Shown here piece by piece: positions 8,767-54,392 of a stretch of DNA of 64,000 nucleotides. Position 1 is the stretch's first letter; each line of letters opens with the position of its first letter. The DNA comes from Trypanosoma brucei. Lineage: Eukaryota. A program made the translations under genes and the position numbers. The stretch is taken from the NCBI GenBank assembly GCA_000002445.1, contig CP000068.1:1536001-1600000 (forward strand). The letters are read 5' to 3'. The notes below the pieces were generated by a model that was given only the letters and a program-made list of their open reading frames with translations, was not told the origin of the DNA and searched no databases.

Positions 8767-10197
8767 TCAGTGCCGTGTTTGGTGCACCTGTCTGAAGCAG
8801 TTTTTCTCATCTTTCCCTCCTGTTTCTTGAGTTGCTTTTTCTGCTTCTTTTTTGCTCTCTTCACTCAATGTGCACCTTTTCTTTGGTTCTTTTGCTTCGG
8901 CGTCCCATTTGCAGGATGGTTTGCACTCTGTGTTTTTGTTTATCCTATTGCATTTTTCTTCGGCTTCTTCTTGGTTTTGTTTATTGTTTTCTGCTGCTAC
9001 TGCTGCACCTGGCGCTTTTTGGGATTGCTGCTGTATAGCCATTGCATTCAGCTGCAGGAGGTTTGTTAGGCTTTCATTGAGGCTGGTTAATTGAATCTCT
9101 GCCTGCAAAGTAGTGCGTTGCTCATCCTTTAGTGCCTGTTGCTTTTGAGCTGCTTTATCAAGAGCGCTTAGCCATGTCGGCTCCTGTATCGTGTTTGCCG
9201 CACTTACAAACGCTACACATGGACCTGTGCCTCCCGCGTCAGCGCCGTTGCAGTTGCCCGCTGCCCCTGCTGAGCCGACGTATCCTATGTATCCTACGGC
9301 GCCGCCAGTCCCTTTCGGTTCGTATAGCAGCGCCCTAATGCTGCTGCCGGCCTGTGCTATGTCCGTTTGCTGGTTAGCTTTATCGTGGTTGCCTTCGCTG
9401 CTGCAGTGTTCCGTTATTTGTGTCCACGCTGCTAGTGGTTTGCCTTGAGCCCCGAAATCCTGCTCTGTAGCTTGGGTTTTGTAGCGTGCCGCGGCGTTGT
9501 TGCTGGTACTGTCCGAGGCGCATAGACATGTCATGGTTTCTGCTAGTGAATTTTTGCTTGATGAGCCGCTTTTGCTGTTGGTGCCGCAGTGCGCTTCCCT
9601 GGTCGCCCCTGTGCCGGTTAGCTTGAGGTTGACTTTGTTTCCGCCGGGCCCGTATATTGCTTCCTCTAAGGCCGACTTGATTGCGGCGGCAGCGTCGGCT
9701 TCTTCTAAATAGTCTTTGGCTTGGTCCGCTAGAGTTTTCATTAGTTCGACGGTTTTGTTTATTTGCATGTGCAGTGGGCTCGCCGGCTGCGCCGCGATCT
9801 TGAGTTTCTGTTTTTCTTCTGGAGCTAAATTTTTTAGGTAGTTGGCTGCCTCTTGATACTGTGCCTTTGAGCTTCCCTTGCACTTTTCAGGAATCTCAGA
9901 GTCTCCCGTTGCCGCTTCTCCTGATGTGGTTGTTTTGTCTGCCATTTTTGCAATTGCGGAGAGCTCGCTTAGAATTAAAGCTATGTGTTGTGTTCTAAGA
10001 GCCGCATCCTTCGCTGCCGCAGACGGCTTGTTCTTACTTTGGAGCTTTGTGGCAGCCAGCACCACGTTGCATAGCAGTCCAAATGTTTGTCTGTTTTCAC
10101 CTTTGGTCGCGGTTCCCGCTTCAGTGGCTGCCGCGTACGTTATAAGCAGCAATGCTACCGCCACTACCGCTTTAGTTGGCCTTTGGTCCAATCGCAT
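8767..10197 (-). CDS. VSG: VSG (cassette C). The 476-aa ORF is nearly full length but is probably a pseudogene: there is a frameshift around 8770-8860 and a stop inside the GPI signal.
   Basis: The signal peptide is MRLDQRPTKAVVAVALLLITYAAA and the protein includes GENRQTFGLLC, CKWDAEAKEPKKRCTLSEE and other VSG hallmarks. The canonical C-terminus continues in another frame (ORF 8637-8864 ends NGSFLVNK, then a stop). After that stop the sequence reads LALMTAVFTALLF. Confidence 0.85.
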   Translation of the reverse strand: MRLDQRPTKAVVAVALLLITYAAATEAGTATKGENRQTFGLLCNVVLAATKLQSKNKPSAAAKDAALRTQHIALILSELSAIAKMADKTTTSGEAATGDSEIPEKCKGSSKAQYQEAANYLKNLAPEEKQKLKIAAQPASPLHMQINKTVELMKTLADQAKDYLEEADAAAAIKSALEEAIYGPGGNKVNLKLTGTGATREAHCGTNSKSGSSSKNSLAETMTCLCASDSTSNNAAARYKTQATEQDFGAQGKPLAAWTQITEHCSSEGNHDKANQQTDIAQAGSSIRALLYEPKGTGGAVGYIGYVGSAGAAGNCNGADAGGTGPCVAFVSAANTIQEPTWLSALDKAAQKQQALKDEQRTTLQAEIQLTSLNESLTNLLQLNAMAIQQQSQKAPGAAVAAENNKQNQEEAEEKCNRINKNTECKPSCKWDAEAKEPKKRCTLSEESKKEAEKATQETGGKDEKNCFRQVHQTRH

Positions 10198-10360: not shown

Positions 10361-11458
10361 TCACCATGGACGTTTTGGGACGTCACTTCGACTTAATAAA
10401 TCTGGCGGCCCATTGGAATGGCGGCTCGGGTGAAGCCTTTGCTGCGGTTTCATTGTAATACTGTCGCAAACAATACGGTTGCCATTCACTTCCATGGATC
10501 GCATTAAAATTCTTTTCACATGCATTACATAATGACAATCTTGCATATCCACCGTTAATAACCCCTCAATTTTAAATTTATTCTTTATAACTTCCACGAC
10601 CATAATATCTTCATTGAGTGCTCTAAAATCAATATATGTTTCGACATTTCTGAATTTAATTTCTGATTTTACTAATTTTATCAAAAGCTCATAATCAACA
10701 ATTTTCTTAACTACATCCCTTGATAGTGTGGACGCATAACCTATTGTGTGCCATGTAATTTCGTCACTAAATTCTTTAGGATAACCAACCGCTCTTGCCA
10801 CATTCAATTTCTCCATTGGCAATATTTCAAGGCACTGTAACAACAATGGCACCCTCATAAAAATATTATCATCTGCTTTCATTATATAAGGGTTTGTTGG
10901 CTTGAATAATTACACTGCAAATTTAAACTACAGATACGTGTTTCTACTCATCGTGAGTTCTGCTTCCCATCCCCAATTACACCCCTCTCCAACTTTTTTA
11001 TCTGCTGTAGGATTTACATCGCAAACTGGTAAAATAATAATATCCTGCTTTAACTCCGCCTCTTCTTCAGCGATTACTCTGAGCTCGCAATTGTTATTTG
11101 TATGAGGTGAAAGGGTATATACTACAGACAACTTCCCAGTAAAATTATTTACCTTCCTTGCCGCTTCGGGATAACTCCAACACGTTTCCCTCTGAAGGTT
11201 GCGCCTTCTGAATCTCCCATCATTATCTATGGAAGGTATTCCAGCTACAACCAAATAATCGTCGGCTTTCCAAATCATCCTTACATCTTTCGAAACAAAT
11301 TTAATACACTCATCCTCAACAACTTCTAGTGAAATAGTGTCACACACGTCAAATAAGCTGTATAGTGACGTTCCTAAATTAACAGAAATAACAATTAAAA
11401 AAAGTAAACTATCATTAACCAAATAGTTTGCAAATACTTTATAAGATGCTATTCCCAT
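10361..11458 (-). pseudogene. GT31-family glycosyltransferase gene (UDP-Gal/UDP-GlcNAc-dependent type). One frameshift or stop lies near 10882-10928.
   Basis: The N-terminal ORF at 10928-11458 has a type II anchor (SLLFLIVISVNLG) and the motif LVVAGIPSIDNDGRFRRRNLQRETCW, matching the xxRRxxIRxTW box of beta-1,3 GT31 enzymes. The C-terminal ORF at 10361-10882 has KADDNIFMRV (DDD-type box) and TIGYASTLSRDVV (GGGYVLS box). Confidence 0.65.
10798..11338. repeat. segmental duplication, copy 1 (also at 20788-21328; offset 9990 bp)
   Basis: The sequence is identical to the second copy apart from one mismatch noticed (11322 a vs 21312 c). The translated ORFs are identical on both strands (10902-11105 = 20892-21095). 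Confidence 0.85.
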
Positions 11459-12120
11459 ATTATTAGAAAACTATTAATATTTGTAAAATCAAAAACGATA
11501 TTTAGAAAATAAGTAAATGCTCTTCACCAAAGTGTTTACATAAGCAATTCCAAGGTATTGTCATGATGTAGCTGTTAAAAAGTCTATGTTAATATTCTGG
11601 AATTTTTATATAACCTCTCCTCTATATTTAGTTTTAGTAGTTATCTAGAGCCACATATAGTGCTTCTAAACAATATAAATCCTTCTGTTCTCTAGAATTA
11701 TTCACATTTTCCTCCAATGTATTTTTGTTTAATTACAGTAGTTACCTGCATCTATGTGTTCAGAAACGCTAATAATTTTACTGTTTATTTGTAGTAACTA
11801 CGACTAACATCCATTTTCGTGACTCTCGCATCACTATAACTTTTGAAACTTATGTAGTTGCCGTCTTGGGCAAAATAATGACACAGTATGGGCTGCACAC
11901 TTCATCTTCTCTCTTACTTATTGTACCCTCTATCATCTCAATGTGCATAATGGTGTACACCGTTACATTTGTGCTCGAATTTACGCCTCTACAATACTCG
12001 TTTCCGTCTGCCTCCTTGACTCAGCTGCTCTTCACATTATTTACTTGGTCTTGTCGCGCCCTTGACATTGTTTCGACTGTTGCTATTGCGGTAAACCATT
12101 TAGTATCTACAAACACTAAC

Positions 12121-12205
12121 ATTACAATAATATCAGTATATACACACTCACAACACTCACCTATCATCATCATCATTATTATTATTATTATCATGGTAAT
12201 AACAT
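12121..12205 (-). repeat. 70-bp repeat block
   Basis: The plus strand reads atatcagtatatacacactcacaacactcacc followed by an ATC/ATT tract. Confidence 0.85.
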
Positions 12206-12422
12206 CTTAAACTATCTTCACTATTTTTATTTGGATTGTAAACCTAAATTACTTCTAATATTCATAAAATAAAGAAAGTAAACTAAATTATAATATCACT
12301 CATTTTTTATACCTTACTCCAAATTGTTTTATACCAATAGGCCACTATCATAAATATTTCATATGTTTGATATTTTTTAAATATTCACAATTTTCAATTT
12401 TTTGCAAAGTTTTTATTAAAAA

Positions 12423-12438
12423 GTGTTAAAATATATCA
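12423..12438 (-). promoter_or_regulatory. VSG 3'UTR 16-mer (perfect)
   Basis: The plus strand reads gtgttaaaatatatca, the reverse complement of TGATATATTTTAACAC. Confidence 0.85.
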
Positions 12439-12529
12439 AATTTAAAAAATTATTTTGAAAAATAATTTTTTCATAAAATTAAGCAAAAATCCTTAGAATA
12501 TAAGAATGCTAAAATGCAACCACACTCAC

Positions 12530-14041
12530 AAGGTAGCAGACGCCAGCGGAAATTTTTTATTTGCGAGGAAACTGTAATCTTTTCAAGTTGAGTCTTACCA
12601 TTTACAACTATCTTCACATTCTTTCTCTCCTTTCCCTGGACATTTATCCTTTTTCTTTCCATTTTTCTCCTGCTTCTTGGCTTGCTTTTTCTAGTCTTTC
12701 CTTCAGTTCCATTTTCGAGATGCACTTTTTTTCAGCTGGTTTGTTGTCGTGAAAATGGCAATGTTCAGTAGCATTACATGTCTTTGGGTCATTGTCTGTG
12801 ATTTTATTGCAAGCTTCTTCTGAATTGCTTGACTGTTTGTTATCTTTGTTAGCTTCTACGTCATCTTTTAACTTGATTATTTCGTTGTTTTTGGCTATTA
12901 TTGAATTAAAAAGCAGTTTTAAAAGTTGCTCAACGCTCTGTATTTCAGAGAGCGAAGTCTCGCCGTTTTCTTTGTCAGAAAATTCTTTGTTTGGAATTTG
13001 TGTTTCTTTAATATCTTTCCATACCTTGAGGTCGGTTGGCTTGTCGCTATCTTTGTAGATCTCTTCTAGCTTCTCGCTTGTTGGGCCGGCGTCGCTGCTT
13101 GTGTCGTATTTTTTTGTTTTCTTCAGTAGCTGGTGGTGGGCTGCTGCCTTTGCTGCTGCCAATTCCTGCAGACATTTAATGGTGAACTTTGTATGCTCTT
13201 TTCCCGCCGCGATTTTATTCTCTGCGGCATATATGAGCAGGTTGCCAAACTCCGCATAAGTGGTTCCGGCTGTAATTTTTTTTCATGTTTTTGCAGGCTG
13301 CGCAATGTGTATCATCGCGGCGCCTGCTGTTGCCTGGCTGAGGTAGCCGGTGTCATATGTTACTGGCGCAGCTAGCGTTTGTGCGCCCACCATGCTGGTG
13401 CCGGTGTGTTGAGTTAGGGCGTAGTTCTGGACAGTTCCAGTCGTTGCTGCATCGCCTGAGGCAGTGGAGAGCTCATCGAACAGAGACGAAGGACTGGTTA
13501 TAGCTTTGTTGGCCGTCGCTTTAGCGTCAAGCTGAGGGCCTACACCGCATTTTTTTCAAGGCTTGCCTTTTTTGCACTGCATTGCTGTTCCTGATTCTTC
13601 TAGGCACCCGTGAGTTTCGCATGTAGCGTAGGCCCCTGCAGCTATTTCTGCGAATTCAGCAATCCAGACCTGTAGGTAACTGCCGGCTGCCTGTGCATTC
13701 AGTGCTACGTCTATTGCCGTTTGCAGCTGTGTGGCTGTTATTGCCAGAAGCTCACGAAGCGATTACAGCAGCGGCCGGAGATTTGTGGCTGCTCCGGGCG
13801 GCTGTCTAGCAAAATATACCATTATTTTCAGTTTGTCTTTTAGCCACGAATCTGCTGTTGCTATGCTCGTTTTTAGTTTGGCAGCCCTCGCCGGAGCTGC
13901 CGTCGCCAACGCTTCCGCTACGCCACACAGTGGCTGCCAGACCGTGTGTTTAACGGCGTCGCCTGCACTTGCGGATGCAGCATCTGCTAGATATATTATG
14001 AGCAATAGCCTCGCTATGTCGTGCATTTGTGTAATGGGCAT
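12530..14041 (-). pseudogene. VSG: VSG pseudogene (cassette D), heavily fragmented
   Basis: The N-terminal ORF at 13763-14041 contains IARLLLIIYLADAASA and WQPLCGVAEAL. The C-terminal ORF at 12644-13162 contains EHCHFHDNKPAEKKC. Between them are multiple stops and frameshifts. Confidence 0.75.
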
Positions 14042-15521: not shown

Positions 15522-16946
15522 TTACAGCTGAAAGAACCGTTCCCTCTTTAACTTTGCACTCTTTCTTTTCTGCGTTACAATCGCATTTTGTTTTGTCGCA
15601 ATCTTTCTCTTCGACGGCTGTGAAAACCTCGGCTTTTTTATCCCCGTCTTTCTTATCGTCTTTTTGTCTGGTTTTTCGCTTTGTTTGAGCTTTTCCTCTG
15701 AGCCTGATAACTGAGCTTTTTCCGCTGCTTCTTTGCCGAGATAATATGCTAATACGGTTACACCATCAGCTGTCCCTGCCAATTCAAAGGGAGTCTTTTT
15801 TATTGGCATGTTCCTTATTTTTATGTCAATCCTTGTCTTGTCAATAGTGTCTGTGACTCTTTGCTTGAATATTTCTGGCTTTGCGCCGAAAAACTTGTGA
15901 ACAAGCGCTTTCCTTTCGATTGCATCTTTTGGAAGTGGTGTGTCTGGTGATCTTATATCAGTTAGGGTTTCTGCTAACCGGTTTTCAGCTTCCAGTGTCG
16001 ACAACGGGCGGTTGTGTGGAGGTGTATATGCAGGTTTCGGGGTACGCCTTAGCTGGCAGATAGCTGCTGCTAGGGCTGTTGGTTTGTACTGGTGCGGCTT
16101 ACTGTCGTCGCTGATTTTTGGGCACGCCGTCTGGTCCCCTGTGCTCTTTAGTGCTATCTTCGTTTTTTTGTACGAGTGCGCTTTGTGTTCGACTTTGGGT
16201 AGCAGTGCGTTGGCTTGATTGGCGCCGTCAAAGTCTTGTGATGCCGTGATGCAGGCGCCGGTCGTGTGTGCGGATCCTACCATGGCTCCGTTTACTTCTC
16301 CTTTACTTAGGGACGTCGCTTCTAGGACGTGTCTGCTTGCGGCCGTTGCCGCCAGCGTTATGTGCTCGGTGGTCTGCCATTTGACGTTAGAGCGCTTTAC
16401 GTCGTCTTCTTCGCTGTCTAGGCTGCAATTTTGCGCGGTGTACGAGATTTTGACAGCCGCCTTGCAGCCGTGTATGGTGTTAGTTGAGCCAATTGTGAGT
16501 GGGCTGCCAAGTTTGCTTCCGCTCTCTAAAGTTATTGTTTTGGTTGCTGTATCGTGGTCAGTTAGGTGCACCGCTTCCTGTATTTTTATTATCTCCCGCG
16601 TCGCCGCTACTTGTTCGTTGTGAGCTAGTGTTGCAGAGATTAGCTGTGATACATCTGCCTCGGCGATTGTCGCTAGCGCTTTGAAGGCCACTGCTGTTAC
16701 TGCGTCGTCTGACGAAGCTGCTGCTATTATATATGCCACCGCAGCTTTAACAGCTGTAGTTGCAGCTGATCCGTCGCTCAAATAAGTCGTTTTGATTTTG
16801 TCGTTGATTAATTTAAGATATCTGGCCGTCTGGCCGGGTGTGGATACAGCCTGGCTGGCGGCGTCATCGTCGCCCATGGTGCCCGTTAACTGAGCTGATT
16901 CCACTAGTATTATTAGTGGCTGTCTCCCTGCGTTGGTGTAAAGCAT
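15522..16946 (-). CDS. VSG: VSG (cassette E). The 474-aa ORF has a C-terminal frameshift, the canonical GPI-signal frame ends near 15488, and the N-terminus is atypical.
   Basis: The ORF ends KRKSAKLKRERFFQL. The same DNA in another frame encodes EEKDCDKTKCDCNAEKKECKVKEGTVLSAVIKVPFLLAVFPL followed by a stop, which is a GPI-type tail. The start MLYTNAGRQPLIILVESAQLTG is only weakly like a signal peptide. Confidence 0.7.
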   Translation of the reverse strand: MLYTNAGRQPLIILVESAQLTGTMGDDDAASQAVSTPGQTARYLKLINDKIKTTYLSDGSAATTAVKAAVAYIIAAASSDDAVTAVAFKALATIAEADVSQLISATLAHNEQVAATREIIKIQEAVHLTDHDTATKTITLESGSKLGSPLTIGSTNTIHGCKAAVKISYTAQNCSLDSEEDDVKRSNVKWQTTEHITLAATAASRHVLEATSLSKGEVNGAMVGSAHTTGACITASQDFDGANQANALLPKVEHKAHSYKKTKIALKSTGDQTACPKISDDSKPHQYKPTALAAAICQLRRTPKPAYTPPHNRPLSTLEAENRLAETLTDIRSPDTPLPKDAIERKALVHKFFGAKPEIFKQRVTDTIDKTRIDIKIRNMPIKKTPFELAGTADGVTVLAYYLGKEAAEKAQLSGSEEKLKQSEKPDKKTIRKTGIKKPRFSQPSKRKIATKQNAIVTQKRKSAKLKRERFFQL

Positions 16947-18221: not shown

Positions 18222-18394
<173 letters not shown>

Positions 18395-18553
18395 TTAAGA
18401 CTAACTGATTTCGGTCAAATAAACAAGATAAATGACATTAGAATAGTACTCGGTCTTTTTACCTTATCACCATATTAATTGGCATGAATGGTCCTCTTCC
18501 GCACTAAAATTTAGTATTTTTTAAAATACACATTTTTCAAAGGTTCGACAAAA

Positions 18554-18605: not shown

Positions 18606-20147
18606 TTAAAATAGTAATGCCACAAAGGCAACCGACATTAGAGTAAATTTTTTATTAAAAAAAATACTGGAATCATTGCAAGCAATATTTTTCCATTTAC
18701 AGCTTTTGTCATCCTCACATTTTGCCTTATCAGTTCCGTGTCTTGCATATCCAGATGTATCTGTTCCTTCTCCTGCTTTTTCTACTGCTTTTTTGGCTTC
18801 CTCGCTCAATGTGCACTTTTTGTTGTGTTCCTTTGCTTCGCCGCTCCACGTGCATGGCGGTTTGCAATCTGTGTCTTTTTCTTTTTTATTGCATCCTTTT
18901 TCGGCTTCTTCTTGTTTTGTTGAGTCACCTGAGGCTGTTTCTGCTGCTGCTGCTGGACTTGCTGTTGGCCGCTTAAGCGCTTCCATGCAGTTTAGTGCTA
19001 GGAGGGTCGTTAGGGAATTATTGAGTGTGTGAATTTGTGCCTGTAGTCGAGTTATGGCGGCCTGTTTCCCGTGTAGTGCTGTTTGTTGTTCCGCTGCCGT
19101 CGCCAGTTTGCCGAGCCATTCTGGCGGTGCTATATCGGCTGGCCCGGTCCGAAAGCTTGCGCAGGCACCACTGTTTCCGCTGTTCTCACCGTCGCAGTTG
19201 CCTGTGCCCTGACCAGCGATATGGCCTATGATGCCGGTTTTGCCTGTCGTACCTTTGGCTGCGTTTAGTTCGGCCTGCAGTGCAGCTGTAATTTCAGTTA
19301 GTCTTTGCCTGTGTTGCGTTGCTGCGGTCCCGACCGTCTTCCGGCAGTCTTGCAGTATTGTCGACCAGTCCGTTATTTCTTCGTTTTGTTCCCCGAAGTT
19401 TTGGTTGCCTGTTGGGGTGCTGTAGCACGCCGTGTTTGTTCTCGGTCCTGCGGCGGTTGACGCGCACAGGCAAGCTATTGTTTCCGCGATTGATCTTTTG
19501 GCCGATGCGCCTGGGCCGGTGTCGCCCTTGCCGCAGTGGGTCTCCCTGTCCCCGCCGGCGCCTGGCAACTTCGGCTTGGTTGTTTTTGTCGTTACACCGT
19601 AGATGGCTTAAATCAAATGTTTTTTGACTGGGTCGTTGGTGTCGCCGTTTGAAAATATTTTGTGTGTTGTAGCAATCTTTATGAGTTTTTGCAGCGTGTT
19701 GTTTATCTTTTCCTTGAATCCGCGGTTTTCTGTGGTGGCCTGTAGAAGCTTTTGTTTTTCTGCTTCTGGTAAGCCTTTGAAATATGTTGCAGCTGCCGTG
19801 CACCGAGAAAGTTTTTCCTTTTTACATGCAGTTGAAATAGCGTCATTGTCGTCTGGTTTTGGCTTGCTGTATGTAATAAGCGACGCAACTTTGCTTATAG
19901 CTGTTGGTTGTTCCATGATTAATGACATGAATTGTGAATTTTGTGCTGCCTCCTTGGAAGCCTGTGCTGGTGCCGGTGCTGCTGAGCCTTCTTCCTCCGC
20001 TAACACCACTGCACATAACAAACTAAATGGGCCTCGGTTTTCTCCTTTGCTGGGTCCAGCTGCTGATACGTGTGTTGCTATTGACACGAACACCGCACAT
20101 ATGGCTACTAACAACATTGCTTGGGGTTTTTTCTGACGCTTAAACAT
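18606..20147 (-). pseudogene. VSG: VSG (cassette F) with a single interruption at about 19568-19608. The GPI signal is canonical and intact.
   Basis: The N-terminal ORF at 19608-20147 has the signal peptide MLLVAICAVFVSIATHVSA and GENRGPFSLLCAVVLA. The C-terminal ORF at 18606-19568 ends CKWKNIACNDSSIFFNKKFTLMSVAFVALLF. It is paralogous to cassette C. Confidence 0.85.
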
Positions 20148-20787
20148 TGCTGTTCGCTGAAGTACTAATTTTCGCTTGGTTAGGGACTTGTTGGTTGTAT
20201 AACAGTTGAAGATACATCGATGCCGGGTTGTATTCTGGTTAATTTCCGCAGAAATGCTGCAAATTTGAAACCGTGTAATCTCGCTATGGTTGAAGTGTTA
20301 CTTATTATGCCGCTTATCAGCCGTTATTGCCCGTTTTAAAGGTAATACATCTGACTATGCTCATTGTTTTTTCTTTTCGTTGATGGTAAGGAACATAATG
20401 GTACTGCCATAAAAAGTGACAGCTTCAGCAATTCATTTATAAGTCGCTCCATTCGTATGATAACAGGTGGCAGCTTCAGCTTGTAGTGAGGTGCATGTTC
20501 GGTGTTTGCCACTGCGCCTTCAACGTGGAAATCTCTGCTTTTGCTTATTTTTGCTGCGAACTTTCCGTGATTTTGGGAATGGCGCAGCGAAACATTATGC
20601 TTGTGTGAAGCCATGACCGCTTAAGTGTCACCTTATGTGTCGGAAAGATATACGGTGATTGATAAGGTTTAAAAGTCTTTAAATTTTCAACCGCTGTGTG
20701 AAAACATCTCTTAACAATATATTGACATAAACTCAGACGTAAAAAATACCCTTTCATTTATACAGCTGACACGTTTCCTCACATTCC

Positions 20788-21346
20788 CCACATTCAATTT
20801 CTCCATTGGCAATATTTCAAGGCACTGTAACAACAATGGCACCCTCATAAAAATATTATCATCTGCTTTCATTATATAAGGGTTTGTTGGCTTGAATAAT
20901 TACACTGCAAATTTAAACTACAGATACGTGTTTCTACTCATCGTGAGTTCTGCTTCCCATCCCCAATTACACCCCTCTCCAACTTTTTTATCTGCTGTAG
21001 GATTTACATCGCAAACTGGTAAAATAATAATATCCTGCTTTAACTCCGCCTCTTCTTCAGCGATTACTCTGAGCTCGCAATTGTTATTTGTATGAGGTGA
21101 AAGGGTATATACTACAGACAACTTCCCAGTAAAATTATTTACCTTCCTTGCCGCTTCGGGATAACTCCAACACGTTTCCCTCTGAAGGTTGCGCCTTCTG
21201 AATCTCCCATCATTATCTATGGAAGGTATTCCAGCTACAACCAAATAATCGTCGGCTTTCCAAATCATCCTTACATCTTTCGAAACAAATTTAATACACT
21301 CATCCTCAACACCTTCTAGTGAAATAGTACCACCTTCACCAAACAA
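20788..21346 (-). pseudogene. GT31 glycosyltransferase 5' fragment (duplicate of 10798-11338). The C-terminal half is absent.
   Basis: ORF 20918-21346 is identical from ISLE onward to the copy-1 N-terminal ORF and includes the RFRRRNLQRETCW box. The sequence diverges on both sides of the 541-bp shared block. Confidence 0.7.
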
Positions 21347-22317
21347 GCTTTATAGCGAAACACTAACGCTAGTTCCCATAATAATAAAGACTAAACTAAC
21401 CGGTGTATCATAAATACTTCATATATACTTCATACCTTCCTATTATCGTACTAATGAGAAGCTTGTAATTCATTTAAAAAATAATAGACAACATCGATAA
21501 AAGAAGTGTTAGTTCCATAAATCTATTTAGTGAAGGAATCCCTGTTTACATATATAAGTCATCATATGATATTGTTATGATATAAGTGTTAAAATGTGTA
21601 TTTTCCTGTCTTCAGCATTTATTTGAGAAACATATACTGTATTTGTTTTTGCTTTAAAAGTGAGACTCAGCCAAACCTAATGCAACAAAGCCGACGAACT
21701 ACACTTTTCCTTACATTATTCACATATCCCCTATAAGCAATGTCATAAAAATTTCGAATCTTAGTTGCGGTAGGTAATAGAGAATTACTAAAAATTTTGC
21801 TTCTTTCCTGTGCTAAAGACCCTTACCATTCTCTTTCATTATGAGACTTCAATAACCATAAATTTATGAACTACTGTCCCTTTTTTTCGATCATCATCTA
21901 TAGAAGCAGAAGATATCTTTTTTTTTGCGCAAAATATGGAACACGATCTATGCTGATGCATTTTTCCATCTGAGGTACATTTCCACGCCTGCCATTCTTC
22001 ACTTTGTATTTTATGTGTTTAATTTTACTCTATTGCTGCTACCAGTACCGATGACATAACAATCTGATTTTACCATTCACTTTATTTTGATTTTGCATGA
22101 TAGCCATATCCTTCTTTTTGTGCATGATAATTCCCATAATTATATCGATTTTAAGGTGCGTATACTCCATTTCCATCTACCCTTTTTTTGCTTTTTCTTT
22201 CATAATATTCCTCTTACTCTCCTACTTACTATCGCATTTACTATACCCATCATTCTCAACCCACACTTGTCATCGTTTCAAATGCTTCTGTTTCGGCTGT
22301 TCATTCTGCTATTACCG

Positions 22318-22400
22318 CTACTATAATTATCATACATATACGAACCAACAAAATGTTCTTATCATTAGGCTTGTCCCTTCCATCACCATTACTATTTTAA
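22318..22400 (-). repeat. degenerate 70-bp repeat remnant
   Basis: The plus strand reads tcatacatatacgaaccaacaaaatgttcttatcatt. It sits in the expected cassette position, next to the conserved element at 22400-22500. Confidence 0.4.
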
Positions 22401-22699
22401 ACCTAACTAGTATAAAAAATATAAATCAAATTAATATTTTTTCATAATTTCACTCATTTTTCACGTCATATCACCTTTCCACTTTACGTCCATAGGCCCA
22501 TTTCATGTACATTTCACTAAAATATAATATTTTTCAGATTTTTTAAAACTTTCAAAAGTTTCACGTTTCTCAAAAGCTTTAAAAATGTGTTAACATATAT
22601 TATATTTCATAAAATTCTCTCAAAATAAAAATATTCATAAAAATCATAAAATTGAGCAAAAATATTTAGATTTTTATAATCCAAATATAAAACAAAAAT

Positions 22700-24151
22700 C
22701 ACAAAATCAACAGACATAAGAGAAAATTTCTTATTGACAAGAAAACTGGAATCTTTACAAGCATTATTTTTCCATTTGCATCCATCTTTTCAGTGTTCTT
22801 GTTTTGTCTTTTCAGAGCACTTTGAAGTTGCCCCTGCTGCTCCTACTCCTGTTTGTGTGGCCTGTTCATTTACCTTTGTCGTAATAGACTTGCAGTGTTT
22901 TTCATCTGTTTCGTCCACTTACCATTTTCATTTTTCATTGGTTGTGCAGTCAGCTGCTTTTTCTATTGCTTCGCATTGTTTTTTGTTGGTTTCTGTTGTG
23001 TTTTCATTCGGTGGTTTGGCGTCTGCTCTAGTTGTGGTTGGCTTGGCTACGCTAGAACTCCTGTAAATTTCCCACGCTGTGGAGTTTATTACTTTCAATT
23101 GCGTTAGCAGGCTGTCGATCCGCCCATGTGTCACCAGTCGTTTGTCTGGTTAGCCCACGGCCCTTTCCAGATCCTGCATTCAGGTAATGCCGTTGTCGCT
23201 GTCACCAAGTTAGTGCTTGTAATTTACGGACATGCCATTGCTGCCATTGCCGTCGCATCCTTCGCTGTTTGTGGGTTTACTGAGTACAGCACAGGCTGGG
23301 AAGGCGCTTATGCTGCTAGTGTGCTTTCCCATTAAGTTTTTGACGCTGCCGAGAGCGGCTGCTATGCTGCCAGTTGTTAGCGCTGTTTCTCTTGTTTTCA
23401 GCCGGCATTTTGTTATCATCGTCTGGAGTTTCGTTTCCTTGTCTCCTTTGTGGTCGCTGTGGCCTTTTGCTGTTGGCGTGGTCCCCTTCTCACACGCAGC
23501 GGTAGCGCTTCCTTCCACGCCGACTCATAGACAGTATAGAGCTGTTGTCAAGGGCTTGTCTACTGTTGCAGCACAGGCTGTTCCGCCGCAAGTTTCGTCC
23601 ACACTGGTTGCTACTGTGGATCCGTCAAATGCAGTTTTCTTCTCGCCGTGCAGCGCTTTCTTAATTTTATGCAGGGCTAAAGTTTTGGTGGTGCTATACG
23701 CTTCTACTTACTGCTCCAGTGCGTCTTTTACTGCTTTCGCTGCAGCGTGTACTTTGATTAGGTTTTTGTTTGCACGTTCACGGTAATTACTTTTTGGTAG
23801 CCTTAGGATTCTGGGCTTGCCTGTTGAGTGTTCTTTTTCGTGTACCTCTTCAAGTTTCTTTCGCCAGGCTTCCTACTCACTTTCTTTGCTGTTGCTGCCT
23901 TCTGGTGTCAGTGCGCCATCTTTGGTTGTGTAGTATGTGTCCGTTTCTGTAGAAATATTTGGGTTCTCGATTTCGTTTAAGGTGGTCTGTACTTGAGCAT
24001 CTGCAGTTATGGCTTCCAGTTGCTTCGCTGCATCTTCTAGGGACAAAACGTTGCATATTACCGCAAATTCATTGTCGTTATCGTTGGCTGTTGCTGATAC
24101 CTGGCTTATTACTGTATACAACAAAGCCCAAACTGTGAATAAAGTTTCCAT
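22700..24151 (-). pseudogene. VSG: VSG pseudogene (cassette G), fragmented
   Basis: The start at 24151 reads METLFTVWALLYTVISQVSATANDNDNEFAVICNVL. Middle ORFs contain GCDGNGSNGM and CTTNEK. The 3' end encodes VNKKFSLMSVDFV but its stop codon is lost. Confidence 0.75.
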
Positions 24152-44042: not shown

Positions 44043-44262
44043 ACTCTTATTATAATATTAGTATATACACACTCACAACACTCTTCTATTATTATTATCA
44101 TAATTATTATCATTACTTCTCTTATCATAATATTCGTATATACACACTCACAACACTCTTCTATTATTATTATCATAATTATTATCATTACTTCTCTTAT
44201 CATAATATTCGTATATACACACTCACAACACACTCTCCTATCATTATTATAATTATTACACC
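44043..44262 (-). repeat. 70-bp repeat block, 3 copies
   Basis: The unit tataatattcgtatatacacactcacaacactcttctattattattatcataattattatcattacttctct repeats. Confidence 0.9.
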
Positions 44263-44609
44263 AATAATCAACTTTAATACCAAATATGTTAATTTTACTT
44301 GAATTAAAAACTTTAAAATATGCATATTTCTTTCAAAAGTGTTAAAATAGGTCAAATTTTATAAATTTTTATAAAATTCTTAAAAAGCTACCAAAGTCAC
44401 AAAGCAACACCAATTAGAGCCAATTTCTTATCCAAATCAAAACAGGAACCTTTGCATTTTTCTTCTATCCAGCCGCAAACAGATTTCTCATCTGCTTTGA
44501 CATTCTTGTTTTCTGCCTCACAAGCCTCTTTTTTCGTGTGATCGTAACACTTTTTACCAGTCTGGGTCCCTCCTGTTCCTGCTTGTGTTGCTTGTTGTGC
44601 TGCTGCTGT
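44150..44609. repeat. segmental identity, copy 1 (also at 47278-47754): last 70-bp repeat plus 3'UTR plus the 3' about 210 bp of VSG coding
   Basis: The sequence is identical at every position compared (about 460 bp); the final 16 bp of the original span were not supported by the comparison. The ORF tail of 44397-45953 (NTTAAAQQATQAGTGG to LALIGVAL) is identical to ORF 47524-47745. Confidence 0.85.
44339..44354 (-). promoter_or_regulatory. VSG 3'UTR 16-mer variant (14/16)
   Basis: The plus strand reads gtgttaaaataggtca. Confidence 0.6.
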
Positions 44610-45953
44610 CGTATTCAATTCGCAGTGTTTTCCTGTTTCATCAGTTTCTTTCGTCCATTTGCAGTTTCCATTCTTTCTGCATTCTGTTGCTTTTTCTATT
44701 ACTGCGCAGTTTTTAGTTACTTTTTCTGTTTCAGGTGCGGTCTTGTCGTGTTTTGCCGTTTCTATTTGCTGCGGCCGCTCGGTGTACAGCAGTGCTTGCA
44801 CTAGTTGCTTTTTAGCTTTCAGTTGCCTTGCGGCCTCCTTTCTTATTTGCACTGCTTGCTCGTGTTTGCGCAGTTGGCTTGCTATCTCAGAGAGTCCGCT
44901 GAGCCACGGGATGTCCGTCACTTTCGCCGTGCCGTCCGTGCCGAGGTCAGTGTACTTGACACACATGCCGCCCCCTTGGAGGCCTGTGCATGTGCCGGCG
45001 ATGGTTTTTCCTAGTGTTGCTTGACCGCTTTTCCTTGCTATCAATCCAGTGACTGCCGCTAACCGCGATTCTAGCGAAGCGGCTGATAGTTTATGTTTGG
45101 TTTTGAGATCGCAGAGCTTTACAGCTTGTGAGATTACTGTTGCCGGTGGTGCAGAAGCGGCGTTCCAGTCAGTTGTCAGTCCTGTTGTGTGTTCACAGGC
45201 TTTTTGTTCGCTGCCGGCTTTAGATTGGTCTGCTGTGCAGATGCAAATCAGGGCCGCCGTTACTGTTTTAGCAGCGTTGGTTTGTGTCGTGCCGTCGCAA
45301 TATCCGGCCCTGTTGCTCGCTGTTGGCGATGTAAACAGCTTTGTTGCGGCAGCGGGTGGTTCGGCGTCTGGGTTTCCGCCGTAGATTTGCTCGTTTAGTA
45401 GTGTTTTCAGCTTTTCGTCATTTAGCAGATGCGTTTCGGGCGCATCGGCTGTCGCTAGCGACTCTATCGCTTCGGCCTCGGCTGTTATCCTGGCGACTGC
45501 CGCCCGAATTGACACACGCTGCTCCTGCGTCATTGCTTGTAGCTTGTGTTTTGTCAAAGCTTCTTTCTGTCCGTCTGCTTTTAATAGCGACTCAGCTGCG
45601 GTTTTCCATTTTGGCCACCTTCCGGGCCAGTCTTTGTGCTCCCTGAATTCTGCTTCCGGAAAGTCTCGCGGCTTCTCCCTGGCATCGGTTTGCCGGAAAA
45701 TGTCAAGCCAGCTGCTATCTGCCAGCGACATATTTAGCTCTAGTAGATCTGCCATGTCTTTACCGAGTTGTGAGTCGCTCGACTCCAGAGCTGCGCGCCC
45801 ATTTGCTAATTCGATTAAGCCGCAGAGGGCTCCTCTCTCCCGCACATTGTCGTCTGCTGCTATGTTTCCGCGCGCGGTCTGTGTCGTTAGAACTATAGCA
45901 ATAACTATCGCCACTTGTAGATGACTGCCGTGTCTTTGTGGCAGTGGCGGCAT
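44397..45953 (-). CDS. VSG: VSG (cassette N), an uninterrupted 518-aa ORF whose C-terminal hydrophobic tail is short or truncated
   Basis: The signal peptide is MPPLPQRHGSHLQVAIVIAIVLTTQTARG. The protein includes CKWTKETDETGKHCELNTT and [26 protein letters not shown] followed by a stop. Only about 8 hydrophobic residues follow the presumed omega region, where the canonical tail is [15 protein letters not shown]. Confidence 0.8.
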   Translation of the reverse strand: MPPLPQRHGSHLQVAIVIAIVLTTQTARGNIAADDNVRERGALCGLIELANGRAALESSDSQLGKDMADLLELNMSLADSSWLDIFRQTDAREKPRDFPEAEFREHKDWPGRWPKWKTAAESLLKADGQKEALTKHKLQAMTQEQRVSIRAAVARITAEAEAIESLATADAPETHLLNDEKLKTLLNEQIYGGNPDAEPPAAATKLFTSPTASNRAGYCDGTTQTNAAKTVTAALICICTADQSKAGSEQKACEHTTGLTTDWNAASAPPATVISQAVKLCDLKTKHKLSAASLESRLAAVTGLIARKSGQATLGKTIAGTCTGLQGGGMCVKYTDLGTDGTAKVTDIPWLSGLSEIASQLRKHEQAVQIRKEAARQLKAKKQLVQALLYTERPQQIETAKHDKTAPETEKVTKNCAVIEKATECRKNGNCKWTKETDETGKHCELNTTAAAQQATQAGTGGTQTGKKCYDHTKKEACEAENKNVKADEKSVCGWIEEKCKGSCFDLDKKLALIGVAL

Positions 45954-47118: not shown

Positions 47119-47388
47119 AGTATACACACACTCACAACATTCTCCCATCATTATCATCATCATCATCATTACTGCTCTTATTATAATATTAGTATATGCA
47201 CACTCACAACACTCTTCTATTATCATCATAATATTTATTACTGTTCTTATTATAATATTTGTATATACACACAGTCACAACACTCTTCTATTATTATTAT
47301 CATAATTATTATCATTACTTCTCTTATCATAATATTCGTATATACACACTCACAACACACTCTCCTATCATTATTATAATTATTACAC
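47119..47388 (-). repeat. 70-bp repeat block, about 4 copies
   Basis: The core gtatatacacactcacaacactcttc repeats with ATT/ATC tracts. The last copy is identical to the last copy of block 44043-44262. Confidence 0.9.
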
Positions 47389-47754
47389 CAATAATCAACT
47401 TTAATACCAAATATGTTAATTTTACTTGAATTAAAAACTTTAAAATATGCATATTTCTTTCAAAAGTGTTAAAATAGGTCAAATTTTATAAATTTTTATA
47501 AAATTCTTAAAAAGCTACCAAAGTCACAAAGCAACACCAATTAGAGCCAATTTCTTATCCAAATCAAAACAGGAACCTTTGCATTTTTCTTCTATCCAGC
47601 CGCAAACAGATTTCTCATCTGCTTTGACATTCTTGTTTTCTGCCTCACAAGCCTCTTTTTTCGTGTGATCGTAACACTTTTTACCAGTCTGGGTCCCTCC
47701 TGTTCCTGCTTGTGTTGCTTGTTGTGCTGCTGCTGTCGTATTCAATTTGCACTG
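47278..47754. repeat. segmental identity, copy 2 (copy 1 at 44150-44609)
   Basis: See copy 1. Confidence 0.85.
47466..47481 (-). promoter_or_regulatory. VSG 3'UTR 16-mer variant (14/16)
   Basis: The plus strand reads gtgttaaaataggtca. Confidence 0.6.
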
Positions 47755-49142
47755 GGGGCCATCTTTCGCGTCATCGCCCTCCCATTTGCAGTTACCATTC
47801 TTTCTGCATTCTGTTGCTTTTTCTAGCTTTGCGCATTCTTTTTTTTAATGTCTGCTGTTTCTGCGCTGTTCTCTACTACCTTTTAGATTTGTTTGTGTGG
47901 TATGTCTAGTTCAGCGTTGTTGAGATTGTGGATTATGGCATACGAACTGTTGACTACCTGCTTCAGTTGATGAGTGAGCATCTTTGTCTGTTGACATGCT
48001 TCGTCGTAGATTTTAAATATGGTCCCTAGGGATTCTAGGTACTCAAGCCAGGGTATCTTGCCCGCCGCTATTTTGCCGCCGCTTACATAATTTGCATATT
48101 TGACGCACACTCCGTTGGTGGCTGTTCCTTCGCAGTTTTTAGTTCCTGCGATTGCGCCTAGATAGCCGCCGGTGGAGTCGACTATTATTGGCTGTCTTAC
48201 CTGTCTCGCCAGATGGCGTAGGCTTTCGGCCTGTAGTACGGTGGCCGCTGGCTGCGGGCAGTGCTTTATGAGTTCGTTCCGTGCTGTGCTGCCTGATATC
48301 GCACTGCCGCTAGTTCATGCATGGCCTAGAGTGACGCTGTGGTGGCAGGGGATGGCAGGGCTGCCTACACTGTCCTTCATGCACACGCACGTCAGCACCG
48401 CCGCTATCGTCGTCGCTTTGTCGCCATCGCAGTCCGTTGCTCGTGTGTCCGATTTGCGTGTGAAAGCCGTCGCCGCTGTGAAGGTGGTCCCCGTGCTTTT
48501 ATCGCCGTAAACGATTTTTCTTAGCTTCTCTGGGGCTTCGGTTATATCCTTGTCCTGCAGCCTCGGTTTTAGTGCATCGATCTGCTTTTTGAGCACGCCT
48601 GCCGTGTGCGCCGCTGACGTTTTGTGAACACGTGCCAGTTTTCTCGCTAAGCCCTCAAGCTTGTTGGCCTGCAGTTTTTTTATCCTTTCGGGTGTTGTAG
48701 CCATGTCGGAGAGCTTTTTTGCTGCTGCACTCCAGAGTGGCCAGTTTTTCGTCCACGTATCGTCTACGAGGTCTTCTGTTATGCCGGCTTTCTGAGCTAT
48801 TTCGGCTTTTGTGCTCTTTGGATTGCTGTCCCTTAAAATATTCCGCCATTTTTCGTTCGCCACAGATATGTTTAGGTCGACGATGCCAGTGATCTCGGTG
48901 TCGGCGTCGCTTTCGTAGTTAAGTGCCTTAGGTGGTGAACGGCCTAAGTTGACTAGGTCGCAGAGCGTGTCGAACAGTGCTGCAATGCCACCGTCCGCTA
49001 TCGCGGCATTTACTGGTAAGAGCAGCCTCAATAGAATGCCAGTGTTAATAGCATTAGACGGTGCATCTTGCGCACAGTACGACTCACTTTTGTTGTGCCT
49101 ATTCGCCTCTTGCTGTGCTTTTGCTTCAGTAGAACGAAACAA
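47524..49142 (-). pseudogene. VSG: VSG pseudogene (cassette O), fragmented, with the same 3' end as cassette N
   Basis: The N-terminal ORF at 48315-49142 contains ALFDTLCDLVNLG, WTKNWPLWSAAAKKL and LTCVCMKDS. The middle ORF at 47883-48110 reads MCVKYANYVSGGKIAAGKIPWLEYL. The C-terminal ORF at 47524-47745 is identical to the C-terminus of N. Confidence 0.8.
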
Positions 49143-54042: not shown

Positions 54043-54392
54043 GTATATACACACTCACCACACACTCCTATAATCATTATTATTATTACTATTATAATTA
54101 CTGCTCTTACTATAATATTCGTATATACACACTCACAATACTCTCCTACTATTATCATTATTATTATTATATTCGTATATACACACTCACAACACTCTCC
54201 TACTATTATCATTATTATTATTATATTCGTATATACACACTCACAACACTCTCCTACTATTATCATTATTATTATTATATTCGTATATACACACTCACAA
54301 CACTCTCCTACTATTATCATTATTATTATTATATTCGTATATACACACTCACAACACTCTCCTACTATTATTATTATTACTATTATTACTAT
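54043..54392 (-). repeat. 70-bp repeat block of about 6 copies, including 4-5 tandem copies of a 54-bp unit at 54117-54386 (4 identical, 1 near-identical)
   Basis: The unit attcgtatatacacactcacaacactctcctactattatcattattattattat recurs with period 54 starting at 54171, 54225, 54279 and 54333. Confidence 0.9.

What the first reader, a model, noticed from the sequence alone, without database searches (positions are those of the whole stretch)
20788..21328. A near-identical 541-bp copy of the GT gene's 5' half lies exactly 9990 bp away, while the flanking VSG paralogs are diverged
Copies 10798-11338 and 20788-21328 differ at one position noticed. Each sits about 600 bp upstream of a VSG from the same subfamily (C and F), which suggests an ancestral VSG-plus-GT unit duplication. 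The VSGs themselves are only about 50% identical at the protein level, and the GT homology ends abruptly on both sides. So either the GT fragment was transposed or duplicated recently, or it is being homogenised by gene conversion while the VSGs diverge.
Basis: seen in the sequence. Interest (0 to 1): 0.5.

Follow-up and report, generated by a model that had tools for sequence, protein, structure and literature searches.

The report
Gene-conversion patch between two glycosyltransferase pseudogenes
In a silent trypanosome surface-antigen gene array, about 0.5 kb of one dead glycosyltransferase gene was recently copied over the matching part of an older, more decayed copy 10 kb away, which is an ordinary outcome of the frequent recombination known in these regions.

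Summary
10798-11338 and 20788-21328 are 541 bp with one mismatch (11322 A / 21312 C), at an offset of 9990 bp. It is the only high-identity match between the two regions.

The window is a Trypanosoma brucei-group VSG array with its genes on the minus strand. Copy A lies in a near full-length GT67-type glycosyltransferase pseudogene (11458-10361). That pseudogene has two in-frame stops, both inside the shared block and both present in copy B.

Copy B is not a bare fragment. GT homology continues on both sides of it:
- On the 5' side it is 64% identical in nucleotides up to B's own start codon.
- On the 3' side a collinear 44-codon relic with stops and a frameshift is visible only to a family profile (11 bits, against 1.3 bits or less anywhere else in the window).

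A matches its family equally well inside and outside the block, whereas B is a mosaic. The best reading is one recent ectopic gene conversion from A, or from an A-like copy, into an old GT relic. Each relic lies upstream of one of two b-type VSGs, which are each other's closest relatives in the window (36% amino-acid identity, not about 50%).

Break-induced templated conversion with short-homology junctions is well documented in T. brucei. This is a clean example of a known process. Interest is low.

The parts
10798..11338 (-). Shared block, copy A (the inferred donor, or identical to the donor). It spans codons 41-221 of GT pseudogene A and includes the WG motif and the degenerate DXD motif (YIMKADDN).
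   Evidence: for the identity; for residue mapping and motifs.
20788..21328 (-). Shared block, copy B (the inferred recipient tract). It is 541 bp with 1 mismatch to copy A, at 21312.
10361..11458 (-). GT pseudogene A. [quoted passage not shown] It has in-frame stops at 10928-10930 and 10910-10912. Its DDD motif has become DDN, and its ED-I-M-x-(G/A) motif reads EDIMVV.
20628..21433 (-). GT relic B as a whole. It consists of its own diverged 5' end (21433-21329, with two stops), the converted block with the same two stops as A (20918-20920 and 20900-20902), and a frameshifted 3' relic (20759-20628, with stops).
   Evidence: tblastn to P0004 from its Met1; profile hit of 11.2-11.4 bits against 1.3 bits or less elsewhere.
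11322..11368 (-). 5' junction zone in A (21312-21358 in B). It runs from the single mismatch through 16 identical nt to 30 nt at about 67% identity (20 of 30). The 5' flank beyond the block (11339-11440) is 64% identical overall. The tract ends inside homology that continues.
20778..20803 (-). 3' junction in B. In gene sense it reads ...GAGAAATTGAATGTGG|GGAATGTGAGGAAACG. Identity to A stops abruptly just after the conserved P-x-EKLN-V motif. The 7-mer GAATGTG occurs again 2 nt beyond the junction.
   Evidence: The background frequency of such a recurrence is 0.3-0.7%.
8767..10197 (-). VSG 'C', an intact b-type VSG ORF of 476 aa, 164 bp downstream of GT pseudogene A.
   Evidence: VSG_B, 6.6e-35; 68% to T. 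brucei EATRO1125 VSG 1125.4162.
18606..20147 (-). VSG 'F', a b-type VSG of 513 codons with a single in-frame stop at 19608-19610. It is the closest paralogue of VSG C in the window (36% aa identity).
12068..12239 (-). 70-bp repeats upstream of cassette A. GT pseudogene A therefore lies between the 70-bp repeats and the VSG, within the cassette. Cassette F has no canonical 70-bp core.

Best explanation
The block is the footprint of one recent ectopic (inter-paralogue) gene conversion in a silent Trypanosoma brucei-group VSG array.

Two old copies of a [GT67 glycosyltransferase pseudogene - b-type VSG] cassette lie 10 kb apart and have diverged almost beyond recognition. A lesion in the more decayed copy (B, 20.6-21.4 kb) was repaired using the better preserved copy as template. 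That template was A (10.4-11.5 kb) or an A-like copy elsewhere. The repair overwrote about 524-541 bp of B without changing its length.

The 5' end of the tract lies inside homology that continues: 16 identical nt, then about 67% identity over the next 30 nt, with 64% over the whole 5' flank. The 3' end falls just after the conserved P-x-EKLN-V motif, beyond which the two copies no longer align at the nucleotide level.

This is the pattern expected of break-induced, templated repair that starts by homologous or homeologous strand invasion and is resolved on very short shared sequence. Examples are synthesis-dependent strand annealing and 'one-sided MMEJ' gene conversion.

Shown:
- the near-identity of the block and the stop codons both copies share;
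- GT ancestry continuing on both flanks of B;
- collinear replacement;
- A being uniform across its length while B is a mosaic.

Inferred:
- the direction, A to B;
- a break as the trigger;
- the repair pathway.

The block has no function of its own. Both genes are dead.
For: 1. The block is 541 bp with 1 mismatch, while the flanks differ at 36% or more of sites.

2. Both in-frame stops of A (L*FKFAV*LFK) and the DDD-to-DDN change lie inside the block and are present in B. The copying therefore happened after the gene died, and selection on a protein cannot explain the identity.

3. B has its own GT 5' end, MKYI*SIYDTPVSLVFIIMGTSVSVSL*SLFGEGG. It aligns with the N-terminus of family member P0004 from Met1, which A's N-terminus does not. 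In nucleotides it is 64% identical to A (z = 4.5, 0 of 500 shuffles reach it).

4. A profile of the family finds a collinear GT relic 3' of the block in B (20759-20628, profile positions 180-223, 11.2 bits). The best chance hit in the six-frame translation of the rest of the window scores 1.3 bits. The relic starts 29 nt after the block, against 30 nt in A.

5. A resembles the family as much inside the block (66-75% aa) as 3' of it (58-71% against the full-length members). True family members compared with each other give 72-85% and 55-80%. B's 3' relic is only about 33% identical, with stops and a frameshift. At the stop density of B's flanks, about 10 stops would be expected in the 180-codon block; 2 are seen.

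6. The window holds only two GT relics. They sit upstream of the two VSGs that are each other's best match in the window (E 1.6e-73, against 5.9e-27 for the next).

7. Literature. T. brucei repairs breaks by ectopic HR, and by RAD51-dependent gene conversion with HR at one end and microhomology at the other, copying 28-1084 bp (PMC3045614). Break-induced, templated mosaic formation uses recombination sites averaging about 9 bp and leaves the donor intact (PMC13233330). Glycosyltransferases make up 1.1-1.5% of subtelomeric genes (PMC2854126).
Against: - No second genome or reads could be examined, so the event is inferred from a single assembly.
- The donor could be a third copy outside the window.
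- The 5' flank is only 64-77% identical, which makes it a poor substrate for classical RAD51 recombination. The assignment of 'HR at one end' is therefore weak, and both ends may have used short identities.
- The original B sequence at the 3' junction is unknown, so no microhomology can be defined there. The repeated GAATGTG is a single observation with a background frequency of 0.3-0.7%.
- The 3' relic is supported only by an 11-bit profile hit plus its collinear position. At the nucleotide level it is not significant (z = 0.8).
Confidence: 0.8

Rival explanations
1. The conversion ran the other way, from B to A, or both copies were converted by a third A-like GT copy outside the window.
For: Identity alone says nothing about direction. 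Subtelomeric GT copies are numerous and vary between strains (PMC4288722; PMC2854126), so other possible donors exist.
Against: A matches the family equally well inside and outside the block, and it has no stops outside the block. B's flanks carry 5 or more stops in about 88 codons plus a frameshift, while the block carries 2 stops in 180 codons. The block's state of preservation therefore matches A's context and not B's. A third donor would have to be A-like across the whole block.
Confidence: 0.1
2. It is an assembly or polishing artefact. Reads from A were used to correct a poorly covered, homologous stretch of B, producing false identity.
For: Subtelomeric VSG arrays are hard to assemble (PMC4288722). 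The event cannot be checked against reads or other assemblies here; searches found no external DNA.
Against: One mismatch persists inside the block. The edges are sharp, and the 3' edge coincides with a conserved coding motif. B's flanks are too diverged from A (64% or less) for A reads to be recruited there easily. The window's only other non-tandem repeat of at least 100 bp at 85% identity or more has the usual VSG 3'-end location.
Confidence: 0.06
3. A 541-bp GT fragment was recently duplicated or transposed into an unrelated site upstream of VSG F.
For: The 3' edge is abrupt, and the 3' flanks show no nucleotide-level similarity.
Against: B's flanks are themselves GT-derived and collinear with the block on both sides, with no net length change. 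No target-site duplication, poly(A) tail or terminal repeat is seen at the edges. The 5' edge is graded rather than abrupt.
Confidence: 0.03
4. The block is conserved by selection, as a functional protein domain, an RNA or a regulatory element, while its flanks drift.
For: None beyond the identity itself.
Against: Both copies have two in-frame stops and a damaged DXD motif. Across about 180 codons all three codon positions are identical except at one site. Selection on a product would not keep synonymous sites unchanged for as long as the flanks took to diverge by 36% or more. There is no Rfam match in the window.
Confidence: 0.01

Closest known systems
RAD51-dependent 'one-sided MMEJ' gene conversion and ectopic HR in T. 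brucei (Glover, Jun & Horn 2011, PMC3045614)
   Same: A templated copy of an ectopic segment replaces local sequence. One end lies in homology and the other is resolved on very short shared sequence. The copied lengths reported there, 28-1084 bp, bracket the 524-541 bp seen here.
   Different: Those events were induced by I-SceI at reporter loci with long perfect homology at the HR end. Here the event is natural, lies between two pseudogenes in a silent array, and the 'homologous' end is only 64-77% identical. The pathway is inferred and not shown.
Break-induced mosaic VSG formation, or segmental gene conversion (Nature 2026, PMC13233330)
   Same: A family member is used as an intact template. 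Junctions fall at short stretches of shared sequence (mean about 9 bp), and imperfect flanking homology is required.
   Different: That work concerns the expressed VSG, and the insertions are mostly short (about 46 bp). Here the recipient is a silent non-VSG pseudogene in the cassette's upstream region, and the tract is about ten times longer.
[quoted passage not shown]
   Same: Copy A is 64% identical in amino acids to TREU927 family members. It has the WG motif and recognisable versions of the other two motifs. Its subtelomeric location matches PMC2854126 and PMC4288722.
   Different: Both copies are dead. They carry stops, the DDD motif has become DDN, and B is frameshifted and truncated.

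Membership tests
[quoted passage not shown] | Significant sequence similarity to named family members | tested here: met
   E 3.8e-126, 64% identity over 85% of the query to the TREU927 protein P0001; tblastn gives 64% over 314 aa for A and 77% over 170 aa for the block in B. Pfam itself gave no hit at E <= 0.01 for the separate ORF pieces.
[quoted passage not shown] | The three motifs WG, Y(I,V,F)xKxDDD and ED(A/V/I/L/M)(M/L)x(G/A), as listed in PMC9472816 | tested here: not met
   WG is present at residue 162. The second motif reads YIMKADDN, so the third D is lost. The third reads EDIMVV, so the final G/A is lost, and B lacks it altogether. The copies are relics of the family, not functional members.
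[quoted passage not shown] | An intact open reading frame | tested here: not met
   A has two in-frame stops, at 10928-10930 and 10910-10912. B has those same two stops plus at least two 5' stops, several 3' stops and a frameshift.
Ectopic gene-conversion tract | A stretch of near-identity embedded in continuing, much more diverged homology | tested here: met
   Searches give 99.8% over 541 bp. Searches give a 5' flank at 64% nt identity (z = 4.5). Searches find a 3' relic by profile only (11.2 bits against 1.3 bits or less of background).
Ectopic gene-conversion tract | Replacement without a net insertion or deletion (collinearity) | tested here: met
   The 5' flanks are 102 and 105 nt. Profile position 180 lies 30 nt after the block in A and 29 nt after it in B.
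Ectopic gene-conversion tract | The donor is unchanged and the recipient is a mosaic, which gives the direction | tested here: inconclusive
   One search shows that A is uniform relative to the family and B is a mosaic, which favours A to B. Without an outgroup strain or the rest of the genome, a third donor cannot be excluded.
One-sided MMEJ gene conversion (PMC3045614) | HR at one junction, and at the other a microhomology shared by the donor and the original recipient sequence | not testable with these tools
   B's sequence before conversion is unknown. All that can be seen is a graded 5' edge, an abrupt 3' edge after a conserved motif, and a nearby repeat of GAATGTG. RAD51 dependence needs an experiment.
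Transposed or retroposed fragment | Insertion into unrelated sequence with target-site duplication, a poly(A) tail or terminal repeats | tested here: not met
   The flanks are GT-derived and collinear. No duplication or tail is present at the edges.
T. brucei silent VSG array cassette | VSG genes on a single strand, with 70-bp repeats upstream and conserved 3' ends | tested here: met
   Searches give Pfam VSG_B, Trypan_glycop and Trypan_glycop_C hits for at least 12 minus-strand ORFs. Searches find 70-bp-repeat cores upstream of most of them. Cassette F lacks a canonical core.

The most novel reading that the evidence does not exclude
GT relics embedded between the 70-bp repeats and the VSG could be more than debris. 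They could serve as an alternative upstream homology 'handle' for array VSG cassettes. Cassette F has no canonical 70-bp repeat. It now shares 541 bp of perfect homology with cassette A, 600 bp upstream of the VSG start. That homology could seed later conversions running into the VSG, or a 10-kb deletion or duplication between the two cassettes. If GT-relic+VSG units are recurrent and conversion tracts often start in the relic, this would be a previously unrecognised recombination boundary in the VSG archive.
Probability: 0.05. Interest if true: 0.45.

Novelty: new member of a known kind. Interest (0 to 1): 0.15.

Why it matters
It matters little beyond being a clean natural example. It shows that templated, short-homology gene conversion, which is known to build mosaic VSGs at the expression site, also acts inside the silent array on non-VSG pseudogenes. 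It also shows that such a tract (about 0.5 kb) can be laid into a partner so diverged that only a family profile still recognises it.

For annotation, it warns that a 'GT fragment' in a VSG array may be a mosaic of old and young sequence. Dating cassette duplications from any single segment would therefore mislead.

Tried and rejected
- External DNA. Exact-protein look-ups for VSG C, the 176-aa GT ORF, and P0001, P0003 and P0005 returned nothing. None of the DNA collections covers trypanosomes. I therefore could not look for further copies of the block, compare strains or set an outgroup polarity.
- Pfam on the separate GT ORF pieces gave no hit at E <= 0.01. The GT identification rests on the homology search.
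- Nucleotide alignment of the 3' flanks gave no significant similarity. Only the protein profile shows the relic.
- Old tandem duplication of the whole 10-kb unit. The other collinear matches (8820-9011 with 18761-18961; 12353-12614 with 22519-22788) are generic VSG C-terminal or 3'-end similarities, shared equally with other cassettes such as 54791-54948. Two unrelated VSG slots lie between A and B.
- Structured RNA or another known element in the block: no Rfam match in the window.
- An 8-9-nt insertion at the 3' junction, suggested by the repeated GAATGTG, is rejected because the downstream relic is in register with A to within 1 nt.
- Strain identification. VSG C's best database match is only 68%, to an EATRO1125 VSG. 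The strain or subspecies remains undetermined.

Full report
**Observation.** Aligning 10698-11438 with 20688-21428 shows a block with no gaps, 10798-11338 against 20788-21328. It is 541 bp long with one mismatch (11322 A / 21312 C), at an offset of 9990 bp. In 30-nt windows the left edge is a step from 7/30 to 30/30. The right edge decays as 29, 20, 13, 9 of 30, so blastn reports 571 bp at 98%. A sensitive blastn of 6-13 kb against 16-23 kb, and of each unit against the whole window, shows that this is the only high-identity match between the two regions. The other collinear matches are generic VSG-cassette features shared with many other cassettes: 70-bp repeats, VSG C-terminal ends and 3' ends. 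In the whole window only one other non-tandem repeat of at least 100 bp reaches 85% identity, 44044-44732 against 47175-47861.

**Context.** All long ORFs lie on the minus strand, and most hit the Pfam families VSG_B, Trypan_glycop (A-type) or Trypan_glycop_C. 70-bp-repeat cores precede most of them. The best database match of VSG C (8767-10197) is a T. brucei EATRO1125 VSG at 68%. The window is therefore a silent VSG array of a Trypanosoma brucei-group parasite. The strain is undetermined.

[quoted passage not shown] This is the kinetoplastid GT67 family, whose motifs are WG, Y(I,V,F)xKxDDD and ED(A/V/I/L/M)(M/L)x(G/A) (PMC9472816). Copy A has WG, YIMKADDN and EDIMVV, and two in-frame stops at 10928-10930 and 10910-10912. 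It is a near full-length pseudogene. It lies between the 70-bp repeats at 12068-12239 and VSG C, which places it inside the VSG cassette. The block covers codons 41-221, so 'the 5' half of the GT' is correct. Both stops and the DDN change lie inside the block and are present in copy B. The copying therefore came after the gene's death.

**Copy B is not a bare fragment.** tblastn with family member P0004 aligns B from Met1. The stretch 21433-21329 encodes MKYI*SIYDTPVSLVFIIMGTSVSVSL*SLFGEGG, against MKNIERIYAIIGCLSFIVMVINILVSLYSLFGEDE in P0004. A's N-terminus (MGIASYKVFANYLVNDSLLFLIVISVNLGTSLYSLFDVCD) differs from this. At the nucleotide level the two 5' flanks are 64% identical (z = 4.5; 0 of 500 shuffles reach it).

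On the 3' side the nucleotide sequences no longer align (z = 0.8). I built a profile HMM from the five TREU927 proteins plus A. It finds a collinear continuation in another reading frame: 20759-20628, profile positions 180-223, 11.2-11.4 bits. The translated relic reads FYV*VYVNILLRDVFTQRLKI*RLLNLINHRISFRH. The corresponding stretch in the family is WYVVGYANTISRDVVKEIVGF..ISKLL...ISFRN. Run over the six-frame translation of the whole window, the same profile gives a best non-GT score of 1.3 bits. The relic begins 29 nt after the block in B, against 30 nt in A. B is thus an old GT relic of at least about 800 bp (21433-20628), riddled with stops, whose middle 541 bp is A-type.

**Direction.** Against the family members, A is 66-75% identical inside the block and 58-71% in the next 99 residues (39% over the 38 residues it shares with the truncated P0004). 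True family members compared with each other give 72-85% and 55-80% for the full-length pairs. A is therefore uniform along its length. B's flanks carry at least 5 stops in about 88 codons and a frameshift, while the block has 2 stops in 180 codons. At the flank rate about 10 stops would be expected in the block. The block's state of preservation fits A's context and not B's. A, or an A-like copy outside the window, was therefore the donor and B the recipient. This is an inference, because no outgroup could be examined.

**Ancestral unit.** The profile scan finds only these two GT relics in 64 kb. They lie 164 bp (A's stop codon) and about 480 bp (end of B's relic) upstream of VSG C and VSG F. 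VSG F is the best match to VSG C in the window (36% identity over 452 aa, E 1.6e-73; the next best is 29%, E 5.9e-27). VSG F is a complete 513-codon VSG with a single in-frame stop. This supports an old duplication of a [GT-VSG] cassette, or membership of both in a dispersed family of such cassettes. Two unrelated VSG slots lie between them (12.6-13.2 kb and 15.5-16.9 kb), so it is not a simple 10-kb tandem repeat.

**Mechanism.** The anatomy is near-identity embedded collinearly in old homology, with a graded 5' edge and an abrupt 3' edge placed just after the conserved P-x-EKLN-V motif. That is the signature of a single recent gene-conversion tract.

In T. brucei, chromosomal breaks are repaired by allelic or ectopic HR and by microhomology-mediated joining. 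A RAD51-dependent 'one-sided MMEJ' gene conversion copies 28-1084 bp from an ectopic template, with HR at one end and microhomology at the other (PMC3045614). Break-induced mosaic VSG formation is templated, leaves the donor intact, and uses recombination sites averaging about 9 bp (PMC13233330). The 524-541-bp tract fits this repertoire.

The single mismatch lies 17 nt from the 5' edge. It may mark the true end of the tract, in which case the next 16 identical nt were pre-existing microhomology. Alternatively it is a later mutation or a heteroduplex repair patch.

At the 3' junction B reads ...TTGAATGTGG|GGAATGTGAGG. The repeat of GAATGTG has a background frequency of 0.3-0.7%. Because the downstream relic is in register with A, it is not a net insertion. 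Its meaning is open, since B's sequence before conversion is unknown.

**Rivals.**
- Reverse direction or a third donor: possible, about 0.1.
- Assembly or polishing artefact: cannot be excluded without reads, about 0.06.
- Transposed fragment: contradicted by the GT-derived collinear flanks and the absence of insertion signatures.
- Selective conservation: contradicted by the shared stops and by identity at all but one site across all three codon positions. There is also no Rfam match.

**Comparison and novelty.** Glycosyltransferase genes and pseudogenes are a known minor component of T. brucei subtelomeres (1.1-1.5% of subtelomeric genes, PMC2854126). They are known to vary between strains (PMC4288722). 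Segmental gene conversion among subtelomeric paralogues is a defining property of these regions. The finding is a new instance of a known process. Its only slightly unusual aspects are that the recipient is so diverged, and that the converted element is a non-VSG relic within the VSG cassette's upstream region. Cassette F lacks canonical 70-bp repeats, so the new 541-bp perfect homology could in principle act as an upstream recombination handle. This is speculative (probability about 0.05).

**Limits.** No trypanosome DNA outside the window was reachable. Exact-protein look-ups returned nothing. As a result, the block's genome-wide copy number, the polarity of the conversion and the correctness of the assembly remain untested.

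**Verdict.** Interest is low (0.15).

Noticed in passing
44044-44732 vs 47175-47861: This is the window's second recent duplication or conversion: 93% identity over about 690 bp, with a 300-bp core at 99-100%, at an offset of 3127 bp. It covers 70-bp repeats, the 3' UTR and the C-terminal end of two neighbouring VSGs. This is the classic location for VSG 3'-end conversion.
   Followed up: partly
15522-16946 (-): An intact 474-aa ORF occupies a VSG cassette slot. It has no Pfam hit even at E <= 1, no PDB sequence match and no paralogue in the window. It is Ala/Thr-rich, has no obvious signal peptide, and has a basic tail that looks out of frame. It is probably a very diverged or decayed VSG.
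   Followed up: partly
18262-18400: A run of about 45 uninterrupted TAT/ATT triplets lies next to a single 70-bp-repeat core, downstream of VSG F.
   Followed up: no
54107-54386: A variant of the 70-bp repeat with a 54-bp period is present as five tandem copies at 96-97% identity.
   Followed up: no
21434-22520: The region upstream of GT relic B has no canonical 70-bp-repeat core. No core is found anywhere between 18239 and 26615. Only a degenerate purine-rich stretch is seen, around 22190-22330. Cassette F may therefore lack the usual upstream recombination boundary.
   Followed up: partly
19608-19610: VSG F is a complete 513-codon b-type VSG with a signal peptide and a GPI-signal-like tail. 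It is interrupted by a single in-frame stop.
   Followed up: yes
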